From Escherichia coli (lineage in GTDB: Bacteria > Pseudomonadota > Gammaproteobacteria > Enterobacterales > Enterobacteriaceae), in the NCBI RefSeq assembly GCF_003018255.1, contig NZ_CP027440.1: a stretch of DNA of 64,000 bases; one strand, given 5' to 3'. The translations under genes and the position numbers were made by a program. Positions 3,917 through 44,927 of the stretch are shown one piece after another. Below the pieces are notes generated by a model. It did no database searches, was not told the origin of the DNA, and saw only the letters and a program-made list of their open reading frames with translations. Positions within the stretch are counted from its first letter, which is position 1; every line of letters starts with the position of its first letter.

Positions 3917-3986
3917 TGTGAGTCTCCCGCGGTGGGCGATGCCCACACGCTTTGGTATGAAAATTGTAGGGTACAGATGCGTTTAT

Positions 3987-5040: not shown

Positions 5041-5832
5041 TTATTTCTTTTTGTTGGTGGTCTGACCGAAGGCGTGCCAGGTAGCAGAGACGCTGTTGAG
5101 ATGCGATTGCAACGCACGATCGGCTTCATCGGGATCGTGGCGGCGGATCGCGTCAACGATCGCAATATGCTGTTGATAGCTAACGTTGTTATGCTCGTGC
5201 AGAGCCTGATCAGCCACGGTTGGACGTGCGGCGATCAGCCAGTCGAGCAAGGCAACGTGGATCGCCATGAAGATTGGGTTACCGGGGATCTCCGCCAGCA
5301 CGCGGTGGAAATCAACGTCTGAACGAATGAATGCCGCGTTGTTATCCAGCGACTGACTGTTGATTTCCAGTGCTTTTGCCAGCAAATCGATTTGCTCATC
5401 GGTGGCGTGTTCAGCCGCATAGCGCACCAGGCTGGATTCAAAGAACAGACGTAATTGTTCGAAATGGGCAATCCCGCCAGGATGAGAAAGGAAATCTTTC
5501 GCCATGCCGGAAAGCTCGCCGATGATGGTGTCCGCAGAAGGACGTGAGACGCGAGCGCGTTCGCCGTTGTTTATCTGCACCAGACCTTTGCGTTTTAACG
5601 CTGCCAGCGCTTCGCGCACCGAAGGACGCCCGACGTTAAAGAACGCCATCAGTTCGCGTTCAGACGGTAATTGTTCACCTTCGCCAAATTCACGACGGCG
5701 GATCATCTGTTCCAGCTCTTCTTCCACCATTTCGGAGAGTTTTTTACGCGCCAGCGGGCGGCTGCGTAAGTTGCGGCCAATTGCAGGTGAAGAATCTTCG
5801 GTTTGCGAATCAAATGCGTTCATAAGGCCCAT
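5041..5832 (-). CDS. nanR: GntR/FadR-family transcriptional repressor of the nan regulon
   Basis: 263-aa ORF matches E. coli NanR. Confidence 0.9.
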
Positions 5833-6211
5833 TCTGTAAGGTCAGTGTGATTAACATCATCAGTGACATCCTATCACAGGATTGAAAGTAGGGGGAAATG
5901 GCGGGGTTTTCTCTTTGTGCCTCATCATTACTATAATTAACTGAATAATTAACTATTGCGAAAAATTAATGTAACGCAGATAAAAACATCCCGATTGAAT
6001 TATTCATAAGACTATTAACAAGTATTATGAATATTATGAATGTGTTCTTACAAAATAATCATAAGCGCATATTTTTTAATGAAAAATCACCTCATCTACA
6101 ATTAAAAACACGACATCCGCACCATAAATAGCCTTGCAAAAAATATAACATCATTGTTTTCAATCTGCCGTTTATGGGATTGACCATTTTCTTTTGACAC
6201 GGAGTTCAACA

Positions 6212-7579
6212 ATGTTCGGCATAATTATATCTGTCATCGTATTAATTACGATGGGCTATTTGATCCTGAAAAACTACAAACCTCAGGTGGTGCTGGCTGC
6301 CGCAGGTATCTTCCTGATGATGTGCGGTGTCTGGTTAGGGTTCGGTGGTGTGCTCGATCCCGCCAAAAGCAGCGGCTACTTGATCGTCGATATTTATAAT
6401 GAAATCCTGCGCATGCTGTCCAACCGCATTGCTGGATTGGGGCTGTCGATTATGGCAGTGGGCGGTTATGCCCGCTATATGGAGCGCATAGGGGCAAGTC
6501 GCGCGATGGTGAGCTTGTTAAGCCGCCCGTTAAAACTCATTCGCTCGCCGTATATTATTCTGTCGGCAACTTACGTCATCGGCCAAATCATGGCGCAGTT
6601 TATTACCAGCGCCTCCGGTCTGGGTATGTTGCTGATGGTCACCTTATTTCCGACGCTGGTGAGTCTGGGAGTAAGTCGTCTCTCTGCGGTGGCGGTTATC
6701 GCAACCACCATGTCCATTGAGTGGGGGATTCTGGAAACGAACTCCATTTTTGCTGCCCAGGTCGCAGGAATGAAAATTGCCACTTACTTCTTCCACTACC
6801 AGCTTCCGGTCGCCTCTTGCATCATTATCTCGGTGGCGATCTCCCACTTTTTCGTGCAATGCGCTTTCGACAAAAAAGATAAAAATATCAATCACGAACA
6901 GGCAGAGCAAAAAGCTCTCGATAATGTCCCGCCGCTCTATTACGCCATTTTACCGGTGATGCCGTTAATCCTGATGCTCGGCTCGCTGTTCCTTGCCCAC
7001 GTCGGGCTGATGCAGTCAGAACTGCATCTGGTGGTGGTGATGTTACTGAGTTTGACGGTGACGCTGTTTGTTGAGTTCTTCCGCAAGCATAACTTGCGCG
7101 AAACAATGGACGATGTGCAGGCGTTTTTTGACGGCATGGGTACGCAGTTTGCCAACGTGGTAACGCTGGTGGTCGCGGGTGAAATATTTGCGAAAGGCTT
7201 AACGACGATTGGCACTGTCGATGCGGTTATCAGGGGGGCGGAGCATTCTGGTCTGGGCGGTATTGGCGTGATGATTATTATGGCGCTGGTCATTGCCATT
7301 GGTGCCATTGTGATGGGCTCAGGCAATGCGCCGTTTATGTCATTTGCCAGTCTTATTCCGAATATCGCAGCCGGACTACATGTACCAGCGGTTGTAATGA
7401 TTATGCCGATGCATTTTGCCACGACGCTAGCGCGCGCTGTTTCGCCGATTACTGCGGTGGTGGTCGTTACGTCAGGAATTGCAGGCGTTTCGCCTTTTGC
7501 GGTAGTGAAGCGGACAGCGATCCCCATGGCAGTCGGTTTCGTGGTGAATATGATTGCCACTATCACGCTATTTTATTAA
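6212..7579 (+). CDS. dcuD: Putative anaerobic C4-dicarboxylate transporter (DcuC family)
   Basis: Trimmed to ATG at 6212 (GGAG 7 nt upstream) giving [10 protein letters not shown]...; matches E. coli DcuD. Confidence 0.85.
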
Positions 7580-7595
7580 GCGATTAAAAAGACAA

Positions 7596-16043: not shown

Positions 16044-16517
<474 letters not shown>

Positions 16518-16882
16518 TCTCTGCCCCGTCGCTTCTGGCGGCGGGGAAAATGTTGCTTTTCCCTCTCACCCCCCCTGCTTTCTCCTGCGATTAATTTAAC
16601 GAATAGTGCGTTTTATCGCGACATATCATTCACATAATGAATACATGGGTTAAAAAAAGCACATTATGCAAAATTCATTATCTAATTGAAAAGAATAGAA
16701 TTAATAATAAATAATCGTGTTTTTAATTCTTTTTTGTTATTAAAACTCACATTTTTAACACTTAGTATCAACTGAAACAGTTAGCGTGGTATTAATTAGT
16801 TCAATAATTAGTGTATACTTGATTTTGTGATATGGGTCACGAAACAAAGGCCCAGCTAAAAGATTATGTCGAGGTAAAAATC

Positions 16883-17146
16883 ATGAAAATCAAAACCACT
16901 GTTACTGCATTAAGCGTACTTTCTGTTCTCTCTTTCGGTGCATTCGCTGCCGACTCCATTGATGCTGCACAAGCACAAAATCGTGAAGCAATCGGGACCG
17001 TATCCGTAAGTGGTGTGGCGTCTTCGCCAATGGATATGCGTGAAATGCTGAACAAAAAAGCGGAAGAGAAAGGCGCAACGGCCTACCAGATTACTGAAGC
17101 TCGTAGCGGTGACACCTGGCACGCTACGGCTGAACTGTACAAATAA
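16883..17146 (+). CDS. yhcN: Periplasmic stress-induced protein YhcN (DUF1471/YdgH-BhsA family), signal peptide
   Basis: Trimmed to ATG at 16883 (GAGG upstream) giving MKIKTTVTALSVLS... Confidence 0.85.
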   Translation: MKIKTTVTALSVLSVLSFGAFAADSIDAAQAQNREAIGTVSVSGVASSPMDMREMLNKKAEEKGATAYQITEARSGDTWHATAELYK

Positions 17147-43866: not shown

Positions 43867-44529
43867 TTATATGACACTTAATTCATTCGTTTGATGAATT
43901 AATTTCGTTATGTTTTCATCTGGCATGAACATTCTTAATACGTTATCGACCAGAGCGGGGGCTTGTTTATAAAGATCATAACCCGCCATATTCATTAACC
44001 AGTTTTGAACAATTCCGCTGAAGGCACCATCAATAATAATCATCACAACATCTAAATCGAGATTATTTGCTATACAACCTTGTTGCTGACACGCCTGCAA
44101 TACTTCGCGGAGAGTCTGCGGATTAAAGCCCATCTTTTCGCGTATCACTCCCTCGGCCAGCATCTCATCATTAAATTCACATTTGTGATATAAGATTTTC
44201 AGCAACGCCTGCTGGCGGGGAATTTTGGCAATATATTGCAAACCGACAATCAATTTTTCACGCAATTGCTGAAACGGGTCATGCTCTAACCCAGCGGTCA
44301 AGTGATCCTGGATTAACTCCCGCAATGAAGGCTGTTGCAACCACATCTCATTAAACAGTTGAGTCTTGTTCTCGAAGTGCCAGTAGATAGCGCCACGCGT
44401 AACGTTAGCAGCGTCGGCAATGTCGTTGAGCGTCGTCTTGCTTACGCCATGCTGCGCAAACTGGGCGATGGCAGTTTCAATCAGTTCTTGCCGGGTCTTC
44501 AGGGCTTCAGCTTTGGTTCTTTTTGCCAT
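43867..44529 (-). CDS. acrS: TetR-family repressor AcrS (EnvR)
   Basis: 220-aa ORF, divergent from acrEF. Confidence 0.9.
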   Translation of the reverse strand: MAKRTKAEALKTRQELIETAIAQFAQHGVSKTTLNDIADAANVTRGAIYWHFENKTQLFNEMWLQQPSLRELIQDHLTAGLEHDPFQQLREKLIVGLQYIAKIPRQQALLKILYHKCEFNDEMLAEGVIREKMGFNPQTLREVLQACQQQGCIANNLDLDVVMIIIDGAFSGIVQNWLMNMAGYDLYKQAPALVDNVLRMFMPDENITKLIHQTNELSVI

Positions 44530-44927
44530 GATTAATTATTCAGGAAATAAATATATTCGACACAGGATGAGAAAATAGAGAAGGTTAATCTATCACCTAA
44601 TGTGTATTTATACGAGAGGCTAATATTGCGTTGCTATAAATCGTCAAATAAATGATATGTATTATTTACATAAAATACATTCACTTGGCCTATACATATT
44701 TCAATTTACGAGATTTTAATTCTACCTCTTTCATTCCGCGTCAAAACAAAACAGTAGAATATTAATCTTTTTTTGTGTTTATGTGCCTTGAGTTGCCAGT
44801 ATTCATAACTATTCCTTACATCGACGAATGATAATTTGTAGGATAGCGAACTGTATTTTTCTTTCTGCGAGTTAACGCATTGCCTTTTTGGGCAAATAAC
44901 GCGCTTTTGGTTTTTTGAGGAATAGTA

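What the first reader, a model, noticed from the sequence alone, without database searches (positions are those of the whole stretch)
5933..6041. Direct and inverted short repeats in the AT-rich nanR-dcuD intergenic region
The 380-bp spacer is very AT-rich and contains a 10-bp direct repeat (ATAATTAACT at 5933..5942 and 5945..5954) and a perfect tandem 9-mer (TATTATGAA x2, 6023..6040) with an inverted partner (ATTCATAA, 6002..6009). dcuD is, to my knowledge, transcriptionally silent under tested conditions, so these may be operator sites for an unknown regulator or nucleoid-protein silencing sites.
Basis: partly seen in the sequence, partly recalled or inferred. Interest (0 to 1): 0.3.

Follow-up and report, generated by a model that had tools for sequence, protein, structure and literature searches.

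The report
Short repeats in nanR–dcuD spacer
Three short repeats sit in the AT-rich DNA between the E. coli genes nanR and dcuD: two look like unconstrained copying slips, and only the 9-base tandem lies in DNA that evolution has kept, so it may help control the normally silent dcuD gene, an ordinary and modest finding.

Summary
All three repeats are at the stated coordinates in the 379-bp, 68% A+T spacer between nanR (5041-5832, -) and dcuD (6212-7579, +). Two close exact repeats this near each other are rarer than shuffles or the rest of the window predict.

The repeats differ in kind.
- **12-bp-period pair (ATAATTAACT x2).** It lies in the half of the spacer that does not align with Citrobacter. 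It is perfect in only 204 of 4278 E. coli genomes. One cryptic Escherichia lineage has a single copy. It is best read as an Escherichia-specific slippage duplication without detectable constraint.
- **Inverted partner ATTCATAA.** It is also in unconserved DNA and is broken in K-12.
- **9-bp tandem (ATTATGAAT x2).** It is nearly invariant across Escherichia. It forms the left edge of a ~130-bp block kept between Escherichia and Citrobacter, which retains TGAA-N5-GAA. It sits about -42 to -60 from a position-conserved weak promoter-like site facing dcuD. About 28 genomes carry one copy.

No known transcription-factor consensus, RNA family, conserved RNA fold or coding signal explains it. An ArcA-box match to the 12-bp pair fails on spacing. 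H-NS occupancy could not be checked. About 19% of E. coli genomes (B2-type strains) lack the AT-rich spacer from about 5903 onward, together with dcuD. Interest is low.

The parts
5041..5832 (-). nanR (GntR-family sialic acid repressor), left flank
   Evidence: NCBIfam NF003011 NanR, E 7e-123; annotated nanR in matching RefSeq genomes
5868..5882 (-). Palindrome ATCCTATCACAGGAT. On the - strand it reads TGnTAGGAT, an extended -10-like site, and is the probable proximal nanR promoter (inference).
   Evidence: Most conserved 20-bp bins of the spacer (0.75-0.84 match to Citrobacter); promoter-like in 19/19 aligned sequences at the same column; a diverged homologue is still present in strains that lack the rest of the spacer
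5903..6022 (.). Unconserved half of the spacer; it holds the 12-bp-period repeat and the ATTCATAA partner
   Evidence: Match to 14 Citrobacter sequences is 0.08-0.42 per 20-bp bin, roughly composition level; 8.3 polymorphic sites per 100 bp among 7 E. coli alleles
5933..5954 (.). Direct repeat ATAATTAACT x2 at 12-bp period (unit ATAATTAACTGA, about 1.8 copies). Its reverse complement AGTTAATTAT matches the old ArcA decamer.
   Evidence: perfect allele in 204/4278 genomes; K-12 has G at 5942; exact 12-bp gap (one copy) in Escherichia sp. MOD1-EC7003, and copies 8/10 alike in E1V33 and E. whittamii; WGTTAATTAW occurs only here in 64 kb
6002..6009 (.). ATTCATAA, inverted copy of TTATGAAT
   Evidence: I1/I2; T at 6005 in K-12 breaks it; not conserved in Citrobacter
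6023..6041 (.). Perfect 9-bp tandem: TATTATGAA x2 as reported; conserved register ATTATGAAT x2 at 6024-6041
   Evidence: 9/9 unit identity in window, K-12, E1V33 and E. whittamii, 8/9 in MOD1, 4-7/9 in Citrobacter with shared T..(T)GAA; natural one-copy allele in strain Z1323HEC0399 and O145 RM9872, about 28 genomes
6023..6152 (.). Block conserved between Escherichia and Citrobacter, with invariant islands (TGAA, GAA, TG, ATCAnAA, TnnTTT, AAAAA, CCAnAA, AAAAATATAACAT). Probable dcuD/nanR control region.
   Evidence: 0.56-0.77 match per 20-bp bin. From window position 6015 (8 bp left of the tandem) to 10 bases past the dcuD ATG the stretch is 203-208 nt long in all 19 sequences. No conserved RNA fold; no Rfam hit.
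6047..6075 (+). Promoter-like site facing dcuD: -35 CTTACA (6047-6052), 17 bp, -10 TATTTT (6070-6075). It places the 9-mer tandem at about -42 to -60 (inference).
   Evidence: My own PWM scan on alignment A3: scores above threshold at the same column in 16/19 sequences. No TSS data could be obtained.
6058..6085 (-). Promoter-like site facing nanR: -35 TTTTCA (6085-6080), 16 bp, -10 TATGAT (6063-6058), back-to-back with the + site
   Evidence: scan_promoters; 18/19 sequences at the same column; ATCAnAA is invariant
6139..6151 (.). 13 consecutive invariant bases AAAAATATAACAT. The - strand reads TGTTATATT, an extended -10-like site.
   Evidence: 19/19
6212..7579 (+). dcuD (DcuC-family C4-dicarboxylate carrier), right flank
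   Evidence: NCBIfam NF007317, 1018 bits; orthologues between nanR and sspB in Citrobacter and cryptic Escherichia
5903..7595 (.). Segment (approximate ends) missing from about 19% of E. coli genomes, where nanR is followed after 107 bp by sspB
   Evidence: 1040 genomes carry the junction, 1038 of them at >=99% identity, including Nissle 1917, APEC O18 and Seattle 1946

Best explanation
The spacer is an ordinary AT-rich divergent control region in which two short tandem duplications arose by replication slippage. They have had different fates.

(1) The 12-bp-period pair at 5933-5954 and the ATTCATAA copy at 6002-6009 lie in the fast-evolving, unconstrained half of the spacer. They are most likely unconstrained by-products, not operators.

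(2) The 9-bp tandem ATTATGAAT x2 (6024-6041) is under purifying selection. It is the upstream edge of the ~130-bp block that Escherichia and Citrobacter share. The most likely mechanism is that its two TGAA(T) cores, 9 bp apart, form a two-half-site protein-binding element. It lies just upstream of a weak, position-conserved sigma-70-type promoter facing dcuD (about -42 to -60), and it overlaps a promoter-like site on the other strand. The bound protein would set whether dcuD, and possibly a distal nanR transcript, is made. The protein is unidentified.

The extreme A+T content and A-tracts make coating by H-NS-type nucleoid proteins a plausible general cause of dcuD silence.

Shown: the repeats, their population and cross-genus conservation, their copy-number variants, and the absence of RNA or coding signals. 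Inferred: promoter positions, protein binding and H-NS involvement.
For: Slippage origin:
- Both repeats are head-to-tail, and each has a natural variant that differs by exactly one unit. MOD1-EC7003 has a 12-bp gap and Z1323HEC0399 a 9-bp gap; about 28 genomes carry the one-copy 9-mer.
- The spacer holds 2 of the window's 8 close repeats.

Lack of constraint on the 12-bp pair:
- Background-level match to Citrobacter.
- Perfect in 4.8% of genomes.
- Copies 8/10 alike in E1V33 and E. whittamii.

Constraint on the 9-mer:
- One variable column in 18 across 10 Escherichia sequences, against 33 per 100 in the surrounding block. By my binomial estimate P is about 0.007, post hoc.
- TGAA and GAA are invariant in all 19 sequences.
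- The stretch from 8 bp left of the tandem (window 6015) to 10 bases past the dcuD ATG is 203-208 nt long in all 19 sequences.

DNA-level rather than RNA or protein function:
- No Rfam match.
- Alifold energy about 0, z -1.5 to -2.2.
- Codon-position entropies 0.69/0.49/0.51.

Promoter geometry: position-conserved promoter-like sites at (+)6070, (-)6058, (-)6142 and (-)5868.

AT-richness: GC 0.29, lowest 0.2% of the window, TpA density twice the window mean, six A/T tracts of >=5. Published ChIP-seq describes the H-NS motif as 5-6 nt of A/T only (PMC3064808).

dcuD silence: PMC6414658 and PMC12886548.
Against: - No transcription start, ChIP or footprint data for this spacer could be retrieved, so every promoter and binding statement is inference.
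- No known transcription-factor consensus in a 29-motif panel beats shuffled sequence. The best is an RcsAB-like 11/14 match on the tandem at P about 0.08, uncorrected.
- In Citrobacter the two units are only 4-7/9 alike, so the exact repeat may not be what selection sees. The constraint could instead be on overlapping promoter hexamers, such as the - strand CATAAT.
- Within Escherichia the 'conserved' block as a whole is nearly as variable as the unconserved half (33 vs 37 per 100).
- A whole lineage (about 19% of genomes) lives without this DNA, and a one-copy allele persists in about 28 genomes. Any function is therefore dispensable.
- The AT-rich tract is only about 300 bp, whereas H-NS tracts average 1686 bp. 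A supplement search of one H-NS ChIP paper found neither gene, but its main table was truncated in storage.
Confidence: 0.45

Rival explanations
1. All three repeats, including the 9-mer, are functionless products of slippage and low-complexity AT-rich sequence. The conservation around the 9-mer reflects overlapping core-promoter hexamers or DNA-shape constraints, not a repeat-recognising protein.
For: Copy-number variants exist for both tandems. The units are only 4-7/9 alike in Citrobacter. No transcription-factor consensus stands out. The - strand CATAAT and TTGTAA hexamers overlap the tandem. The whole region is dispensable in B2-type strains.
Against: 18 tandem columns carry a single substitution across five Escherichia lineages while the neighbouring columns change at about 33%. 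The invariant TGAA...GAA is spaced by the repeat period in two genera. Two perfect copies kept over that divergence are unlikely without selection or repeated homogenisation.
Confidence: 0.3
2. The repeats are nucleation or high-affinity sites for H-NS (or StpA, Fis, IHF or Lrp) that silence dcuD.
For: GC 0.29, high TpA density and several A/T tracts, some conserved and spaced 10-22 bp apart. dcuD is reported silent. The same IS5 insertion arose in this spacer in two independent lineages in an evolution experiment; from general knowledge, IS5 often targets H-NS-bound, curved AT-rich DNA. An Lrp SELEX-like match of 13/15 lies on the 12-bp pair.
Against: No exact IHF consensus lies in the spacer (best match 8/9). 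The best match to the Lang H-NS 10-mer is 8/10, no better than shuffles, and the Fis and Lrp matches are no better than shuffles either. Nucleoid proteins read A/T tracts and DNA shape rather than exact repeats, so nothing singles out these repeats within the tract. dcuD is not a recent acquisition, because nanR-dcuD-sspB synteny is shared with Citrobacter.
Confidence: 0.2
3. The 12-bp-period pair is an ArcA-P operator. The - strand reads AGTTAATTAT twice, matching the classical ArcA decamer [A/T]GTTAATTA[A/T], and links dcuD or nanR to redox control.
For: WGTTAATTAW occurs in the 64-kb window only at these two positions, against 0.35 expected. A putative anaerobic carrier would be a sensible ArcA target.
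Against: The spacing is 12 bp, whereas ArcA boxes have 11 bp centre-to-centre, and a 12-bp-spaced repeat at putP was not protected by ArcA-P (PMC3798270). Neither dcuD nor nanR appears in that paper's supplementary binding tables. The two matches are one duplication event, not two independent hits. K-12 and 95% of genomes have CGTTAATTAT in one copy. The 15-mer ArcA consensus scores 10/15, worse than 98% of shuffles. The site is absent from Citrobacter and single-copy in MOD1.
Confidence: 0.04
4. The 9-bp tandem encodes the start of a small upstream ORF or leader peptide (MNIMNV..., 6027-6131) that controls dcuD translationally. The 9-bp unit would be three codons.
For: An ORF opens at the same column with ATG, GTG or TTG and stays open for >=16 codons in all 19 Escherichia and Citrobacter sequences, with a recognisable consensus M-K/N-x-x-N-M/V-x-x-x-N/I-N/Y-H-N/K-x-L/I/M-F. 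The indel variants keep the frame.
Against: I saw no Shine-Dalgarno sequence upstream of either ATG on reading the sequences. Codon-position entropy is 0.69/0.49/0.51: first positions vary most, and the third position of codon 4 is invariant while positions 1-2 vary. That is the opposite of a coding pattern. Stop positions differ (16 to 34 codons). I saw no conserved terminator or attenuator on reading the leader, and alifold finds no conserved fold.
Confidence: 0.03

Closest known systems
Short tandem duplications or indels made by replication slippage in AT-rich intergenic DNA
   Same: Head-to-tail exact copies of 9 and 12 bp. Natural alleles differ by exactly one unit. The repeats are enriched in the most AT-rich tract of the window.
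   Different: There are only two copies and no sign of high-frequency switching. One of the two (the 9-mer) is kept unusually constant, which neutral slippage products are not.
Direct-repeat operators of response-regulator-type transcription factors (e.g. the ArcA box, two 10-bp elements 11 bp apart; PMC3798270)
   Same: Two identical short elements occur in tandem upstream of a promoter. The 12-bp pair matches the old ArcA decamer letter for letter. The 9-mer pair sits where an activator or repressor site would, at about -42 to -60 of a promoter-like site.
   Different: The periods are 12 and 9 bp, not 11. There is no ArcA ChIP entry. No known consensus fits the 9-mer better than chance. Binding is untested.
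H-NS-silenced, AT-rich promoter regions of cryptic genes (e.g. bgl-type silencing; general knowledge)
   Same: A reportedly silent gene lies behind a ~300-bp tract of about 71% A+T with A-tracts and many promoter-like hexamers on both strands. IS5 insertion recurs in the spacer in experimental evolution.
   Different: Occupancy is not shown. The tract is short. The locus is not recently acquired. The exact repeats play no demonstrated part.
Predicted sigma-54 promoter of dcuD listed in RegulonDB-derived sets (PMC3118216)
   Same: It concerns the same gene.
   Different: No -24/-12 element with <=2 mismatches lies in the spacer. The sigma-54 site found by ChIP-seq and assigned to dcuD lies 2253 bp upstream at window 3953-3968, between nanT and nanA. 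It is unrelated to the repeats.

Membership tests
ArcA box (ArcA-P operator) | Direct-repeat element matching the ArcA decamer or DR matrix | tested here: met
   AGTTAATTAT x2 on the - strand matches [A/T]GTTAATTA[A/T] (consensus recalled from Lynch & Lin). These are the only two matches in 64 kb. However, K-12 and 95% of genomes have one mismatch, and the 15-mer consensus scores only 10/15.
ArcA box (ArcA-P operator) | Two repeats 11 bp centre-to-centre | tested here: not met
   The spacing is 12 bp. Park et al. report the 11-bp rule and no protection of a 12-bp-spaced element (PMC3798270).
ArcA box (ArcA-P operator) | In vivo occupancy by ArcA | tested here: not met
   There is no dcuD, nanR, b3227 or b3226 entry in the 13 supplementary files of the ArcA ChIP-seq paper. 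This rests on absence from held text only.
Transcription-factor operator (any) | Conservation of the site in orthologous spacers | tested here: inconclusive
   12-bp pair and ATTCATAA: not conserved. 9-mer tandem: conserved in Escherichia, and its core TGAA-N5-GAA is invariant in Citrobacter although the units are only 4-7/9 alike.
Transcription-factor operator (any) | Match to a known factor's consensus beyond chance | tested here: not met
   29 recalled consensus motifs were compared against 300 dinucleotide shuffles. The lowest P is 0.08 (RcsAB-like), uncorrected. No NanR GGTATA repeats are present (best match 10/18).
Transcription-factor operator (any) | Demonstrated protein binding or a regulatory effect | not testable with these tools
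   This needs EMSA, footprinting, ChIP or reporter assays.
H-NS-bound silencing region | Extended A/T-rich tract with A/T-only 5-6-mers and curvature | tested here: met
   GC 0.29 over 307 bp, in the lowest 0.2% of the window; six A/T runs of >=5; TpA density 0.098 vs 0.045. The motif description comes from PMC3064808.
H-NS-bound silencing region | H-NS ChIP occupancy and derepression in an hns mutant | not testable with these tools
H-NS-bound silencing region | Recently horizontally acquired DNA (a typical but not obligatory feature) | tested here: not met
   nanR-dcuD-sspB synteny is shared with 14 Citrobacter and 3 cryptic Escherichia genomes. dcuD GC is about 0.52. There is no phage or true plasmid homology.
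Slippage-generated tandem repeat | Head-to-tail exact copies | tested here: met
Slippage-generated tandem repeat | Alleles differing by whole units among relatives | tested here: met
   A 12-bp gap in MOD1-EC7003 and a 9-bp gap in Z1323HEC0399; about 28 genomes with the one-copy junction, e.g. O145 RM9872.
Phase-variable contingency repeat | Many copies with frequent length change that toggles expression | tested here: not met
   Only 1 or 2 copies are seen. More than 99% of genomes that hold the spacer have two copies.
Sigma-54 promoter of dcuD | -24 GG / -12 GC element upstream of dcuD | tested here: not met
   The only spacer hits have 3 mismatches and none has the GG dinucleotide. The ChIP-seq site assigned to dcuD is at 3953-3968, 2253 bp away.
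Cis-regulatory RNA, sRNA or leader peptide | Rfam match, conserved fold, or coding-type substitution pattern with an SD | tested here: not met
   Rfam best hit is 20.8 bits against a gathering score of 44, and all hits are implausible families. Alifold energy is about 0. Codon-position entropies are 0.69/0.49/0.51 and there is no SD.

The most novel reading that the evidence does not exclude
The ATTATGAAT x2 tandem is the operator of a not-yet-identified regulator that decides whether the 'cryptic' carrier gene dcuD is expressed. The natural one-copy alleles (O145 RM9872 lineage) and the B2 deletion would then be regulatory variants with a physiological consequence. Finding the binding protein would reveal the condition under which dcuD is used.
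Probability: 0.15. Interest if true: 0.45.

Novelty: new member of a known kind. Interest (0 to 1): 0.18.

Why it matters
dcuD has been an orphan 'silent' transporter gene since 1999. A short, constrained element at the edge of its conserved upstream block gives a concrete handle for a pulldown or reporter experiment, and natural 2-copy, 1-copy and deletion alleles serve as ready-made controls. Beyond that, the finding is an ordinary AT-rich divergent promoter region. Two of the three repeats show no sign of function. No long-standing question is resolved by the sequence analysis alone.

Tried and rejected
- **ArcA operator.** The decamer matches, but the spacing is 12 rather than 11 bp, there is no ChIP entry, and the site is not conserved.
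- **Sigma-54 promoter in the spacer.** None is present. The published site is 2.25 kb away.
- **FNR, CRP, IHF, Fis, Fur, ArgR, Lrp, RcsAB, NanR and 20 other consensus motifs.** None beats shuffles.
- **Known RNA family or conserved RNA fold.** Nothing found.
- **Small ORF or leader peptide starting in the tandem.** The ORF is conserved as an open frame but shows no coding pattern and has no SD.
- **Remnant of a mobile element.** No phage hit. The only 'plasmid' hits are four E. coli records, three of 4.8-4.9 Mb and one of 354 kb, which I take to be chromosomal DNA filed as plasmids.
- **Recent horizontal acquisition of dcuD plus spacer.** Rejected, because synteny with Citrobacter shows that the dcuD-less state is a deletion.
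- **Literature look-ups that led nowhere.** H-NS/Fis ChIP-seq supplements were not held. The H-NS table was truncated. The TSS supplement has no entry for either gene. The operon-architecture, TF-compendium and aerobicity-paper supplements were not held. The Kalivoda NanR papers were not held.
- **FNR.** The FNR paper lists nanR only as 'repressed' in one older microarray, with no binding-site entry for either gene.
Full report
**Context.** The window is E. coli. The spacer and its flanks are 100% identical to strain 104 (NZ_CP029164) and 96.8% identical to K-12 derivatives over the spacer. The finding lies in the 379-bp spacer 5833-6211. On its left is nanR (5041-5832, - strand; NCBIfam NanR, E 7e-123). 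On its right is the DcuC-family carrier gene known in K-12 as dcuD (6212-7579, + strand). sspB and sspA follow on the - strand. Spacer GC is 0.32, and 0.29 for 5905-6211. That places it among the three most AT-rich 300-bp stretches of the 64-kb window, in the lowest 0.2%.

**Observation.**
- ATAATTAACT is at 5933-5942 and 5945-5954, at a 12-bp period.
- TATTATGAA x2 is at 6023-6040. The exact run is 10 bases at period 9, extending to 6041.
- ATTCATAA at 6002-6009 is the reverse complement of TTATGAAT inside each 9-mer.

In 2000 dinucleotide-preserving shuffles of the spacer, a close (<=30 bp) exact repeat of >=10 nt appears in 2.6%. A perfect tandem of period >=9 appears in 0.45%, and both together in 0.2%. 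In the real 64 kb there are 8 such close repeats and 2 perfect tandems, and two of the eight fall in this 0.6% of the sequence. The repeats are therefore real and exceed what composition predicts. That excess is what local slippage duplication produces, and it does not by itself indicate function.

**Variation within E. coli.**
- K-12 differs from the window at 12 of 379 positions. Three of these hit the repeats: 5942 T>G, 6005 C>T and 6023 T>C.
- The window's perfect 10-mer pair is found exactly in 204 of 4278 genomes. The other 95% carry the K-12 form, in which only ATAATTAAC is repeated.
- The 60 bp around the tandem match exactly in 394 of 4157 genomes. The K-12 form, four differences away, is in 2757.
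- In the K-12 form ATTCATAA is ATTTATAA. The tandem, however, is still perfect in the register ATTATGAAT x2.
- Strain Z1323HEC0399 has exactly one 9-bp unit. A query across that junction finds about 28 genomes with the one-copy allele, e.g. O145 str. RM9872.
- About 19% of complete genomes lack the region altogether. In 1040 genomes nanR is followed after 107 bp by sspB, and the junction is >=99% identical in 1038 of them. These include Nissle 1917, APEC O18 and 'Seattle 1946', which I recognise as phylogroup B2 strains. The missing segment runs from about 5903 to about 7595. It covers the AT-rich spacer from about 5903 onward together with dcuD. A diverged copy of the first ~70 bp upstream of nanR remains.

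**Comparison with other genera.** A scan of species-representative genomes with the DcuD protein found orthologues at 87-98% amino-acid identity. They occur in three cryptic or novel Escherichia lineages and in 14 Citrobacter genomes usable for alignment. Every locus with enough flank has nanR upstream and divergent, and sspB downstream. dcuD between nanR and sspB is therefore ancestral, and the dcuD-less E. coli state is a deletion. Aligning the 19 spacers gives a clear footprint:
- **5863-5900, next to nanR:** conserved, 0.75-0.84 match to Citrobacter per 20-bp bin.
- **5903-6022:** at background, 0.08-0.42.
- **6023-6152:** conserved in islands, 0.56-0.77.
- **6153-6172:** not conserved.
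- **6173-6211, the dcuD ribosome-binding region:** moderately conserved.

The 12-bp-period repeat and ATTCATAA lie in the background stretch. The 9-mer tandem is the first element of the conserved block. Escherichia sp. MOD1-EC7003 has a clean 12-bp gap, leaving one copy of the first repeat. In E1V33 and E. whittamii the two copies are 8/10 alike. The ATTATGAAT units, by contrast, are 9/9 identical in four Escherichia lineages and 8/9 in the fifth. In Citrobacter the homologous 18 columns hold two units that are 4-7/9 alike and share T..(T)GAA. TGAA (6028-6031), GAA (6038-6040) and TG (6043-6044) are invariant in all 19 sequences. Across the ten Escherichia sequences the block 6023-6152 varies at 33 columns per 100. 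The 18 tandem columns carry one substitution, setting aside the one-copy allele. A binomial estimate gives P of about 0.007, post hoc. From window position 6015 (8 bp left of the tandem) to 10 bases past the dcuD ATG, the stretch is 203-208 nt long in all 19 sequences.

**What the conserved block is not.**
- Rfam gives only sub-threshold, implausible hits.
- RNAalifold on either strand finds essentially no consensus structure (energies 0 to -0.9; z -1.5 to -2.2 against column shuffles).
- An ORF (6027-6131, MNIMNVFLQNNHK...) starts inside the tandem. It stays open from an ATG, GTG or TTG at the same column in all 19 sequences. I saw no Shine-Dalgarno sequence upstream of it on reading the sequences. 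Its per-codon-position entropies are 0.69/0.49/0.51, and codon 4 has an invariant third base with variable first and second bases. That is the reverse of a coding signature.
- The spacer has no phage homologue. Its only 'plasmid' hits are four E. coli records, three of 4.8-4.9 Mb and one of 354 kb, which I take to be chromosomal DNA filed as plasmids.

The constraint therefore acts on the DNA itself.

**Promoter geometry (inference).** The tool scan and my own position-weight scan on the alignment find four promoter-like sites that recur at the same alignment column.
- **(-) TGnTAGGAT at 5868-5876**, in 19/19 sequences. It lies inside the invariant palindrome ATCCTAnCACAGGAT and is probably the proximal nanR promoter. 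A TGnTACGAT version survives in the dcuD-less strains.
- **(-) TTTTCA-16-TATGAT at 6085-6058**, in 18/19.
- **(-) TGTTATATT at 6142-6150**, in 19/19, inside 13 invariant bases.
- **(+) CTTACA-17-TATTTT at 6047-6075**, in 16/19, facing dcuD.

Relative to the + site, the tandem occupies roughly -42 to -60, where activators, repressors or UP-like contacts act. On the - strand the tandem supplies CATAAT hexamers. No TSS data could be retrieved to test any of this.

**Candidate binding proteins.** On the - strand the 10-mer reads AGTTAATTAT, which matches the classical ArcA decamer. The pattern occurs nowhere else in the window. Several points argue against ArcA:
- The two hits are one duplication, not two independent matches.
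- The spacing is 12 bp, whereas ArcA boxes are 11 bp centre-to-centre, and a 12-bp-spaced element was not protected by ArcA-P (PMC3798270).
- Neither gene appears in that study's supplementary tables.
- Most E. coli genomes have a mismatch in one copy.
- The site is absent from Citrobacter.

A panel of 29 consensus motifs, recalled from the literature rather than taken from a database, was scored against 300 shuffles. Nothing stood out. The best result was an RcsAB-like 11/14 match on the tandem at P of about 0.08, uncorrected. No FNR-like match at <=2 mismatches and no exact IHF consensus lies in the AT-rich core. There is no sigma-54 element in the spacer. The published sigma-54 ChIP-seq site assigned to dcuD is the TGGTATGAAAATTGTA at window 3953-3968, 2253 bp upstream between nanT and nanA. 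That site probably explains why dcuD appears in RegulonDB-derived sigma-54 lists.

**Nucleoid proteins.** The composition fits what H-NS binds: an A/T-only 5-6-mer motif and a preference for operon-upstream DNA (PMC3064808). The tract has twice the window's TpA density and six A/T runs of >=5, several of them invariant. dcuD is described as not expressed or transcriptionally dormant. The same IS5 insertion arose in the nanR/dcuD spacer in two independent lineages of an evolution experiment selecting for nan-operon expression. These facts make H-NS-type silencing plausible.

**Verdict.** The most economical account is two slippage duplications in an AT-rich divergent control region.
- The 12-bp one, and the inverted octamer, show no constraint.
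- The 9-bp one coincides with a constrained element at the upstream edge of the conserved dcuD control block. It probably acts as a pair of TGAA(T) half-sites for an unidentified protein, or as overlapping promoter determinants.

Any such function is dispensable, as the one-copy alleles and the B2-type deletion show. The finding is a new example of a familiar kind of feature and of low general interest. Its one practical value is as a defined probe, with natural allelic controls, for the unsolved regulation of dcuD.

Noticed in passing
window ~5903-7595: About 19% of complete E. coli genomes (1040/5426; e.g. Nissle 1917, APEC O18, Seattle 1946, SF-166) lack dcuD together with the AT-rich spacer from about 5903 onward. 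In them nanR is followed after 107 bp by sspB. The junction is >=99% identical in 1038 genomes, which points to a single deletion. Synteny with Citrobacter shows that presence of dcuD is ancestral.
   Followed up: yes
window 3953-3968 (+): The sigma-54-like sequence TGGTATGAAAATTGTA lies between nanT and nanA. It equals the published sigma-54 ChIP-seq site OA06, 'dcuD, 2253 bp' (PMC4591121). It probably explains why dcuD appears in lists of sigma-54 promoters.
   Followed up: partly
window 5868-5882: The palindrome ATCCTATCACAGGAT just upstream of nanR sits in the best-conserved part of the spacer. ATCCTA and CACAGGAT are invariant in all 19 Escherichia and Citrobacter sequences, apart from one Citrobacter-variable base in ATCCTA. 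On the - strand it reads as an extended -10 (TGnTAGGAT). It could also be an operator. An FNR-like GTGATTAACATCAT (2 mismatches) lies next to it at 5847-5860 but is not conserved.
   Followed up: partly
window 6139-6151: Thirteen consecutive invariant bases, AAAAATATAACAT, form the longest invariant run in the spacer. The - strand reads TGTTATATT, an extended -10-like site. Its function is unknown.
   Followed up: partly
window 6027-6131 (+): A small ORF, MNIMNVFLQNNHK..., begins inside the 9-bp tandem. It stays open from ATG, GTG or TTG in all 19 aligned sequences, but it lacks an SD and shows a non-coding substitution pattern.
   Followed up: yes
L019 (Negativicutes MAG), L023-L037: DcuD has a 74%-identical relative in a low-GC Negativicutes metagenome bin (gene GC 0.42, no upstream homology). 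It also has 42-45% relatives in the succinate-fermenting Succiniclasticum/Acidaminococcaceae. This hints at old gene transfer and at succinate as substrate.
   Followed up: partly
window 5932-5937 (+): The window's allele (T at 5932) creates a perfect TATAAT with TTCTCT 17 bp upstream. K-12 has CATAAT. This allele is shared by about 5% of genomes.
   Followed up: no
window 16078-16096; AT-rich minima near 16590-16889 and 44512-44811: The only other perfect 9-bp tandem in the window (exact run TTAAAGCATT, period 9) lies beside another AT-rich stretch (GC about 0.36); the window's two other most AT-rich 300-bp stretches (GC 0.27 and 0.29) are listed in the coordinates. Neither was examined.
   Followed up: no
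L003 (E. coli ET846): An IS1 element abuts a 5'-truncated dcuD, and nanR and the nan operon are replaced by yhc fimbrial genes. This is a second, independent rearrangement at this locus.
   Followed up: no
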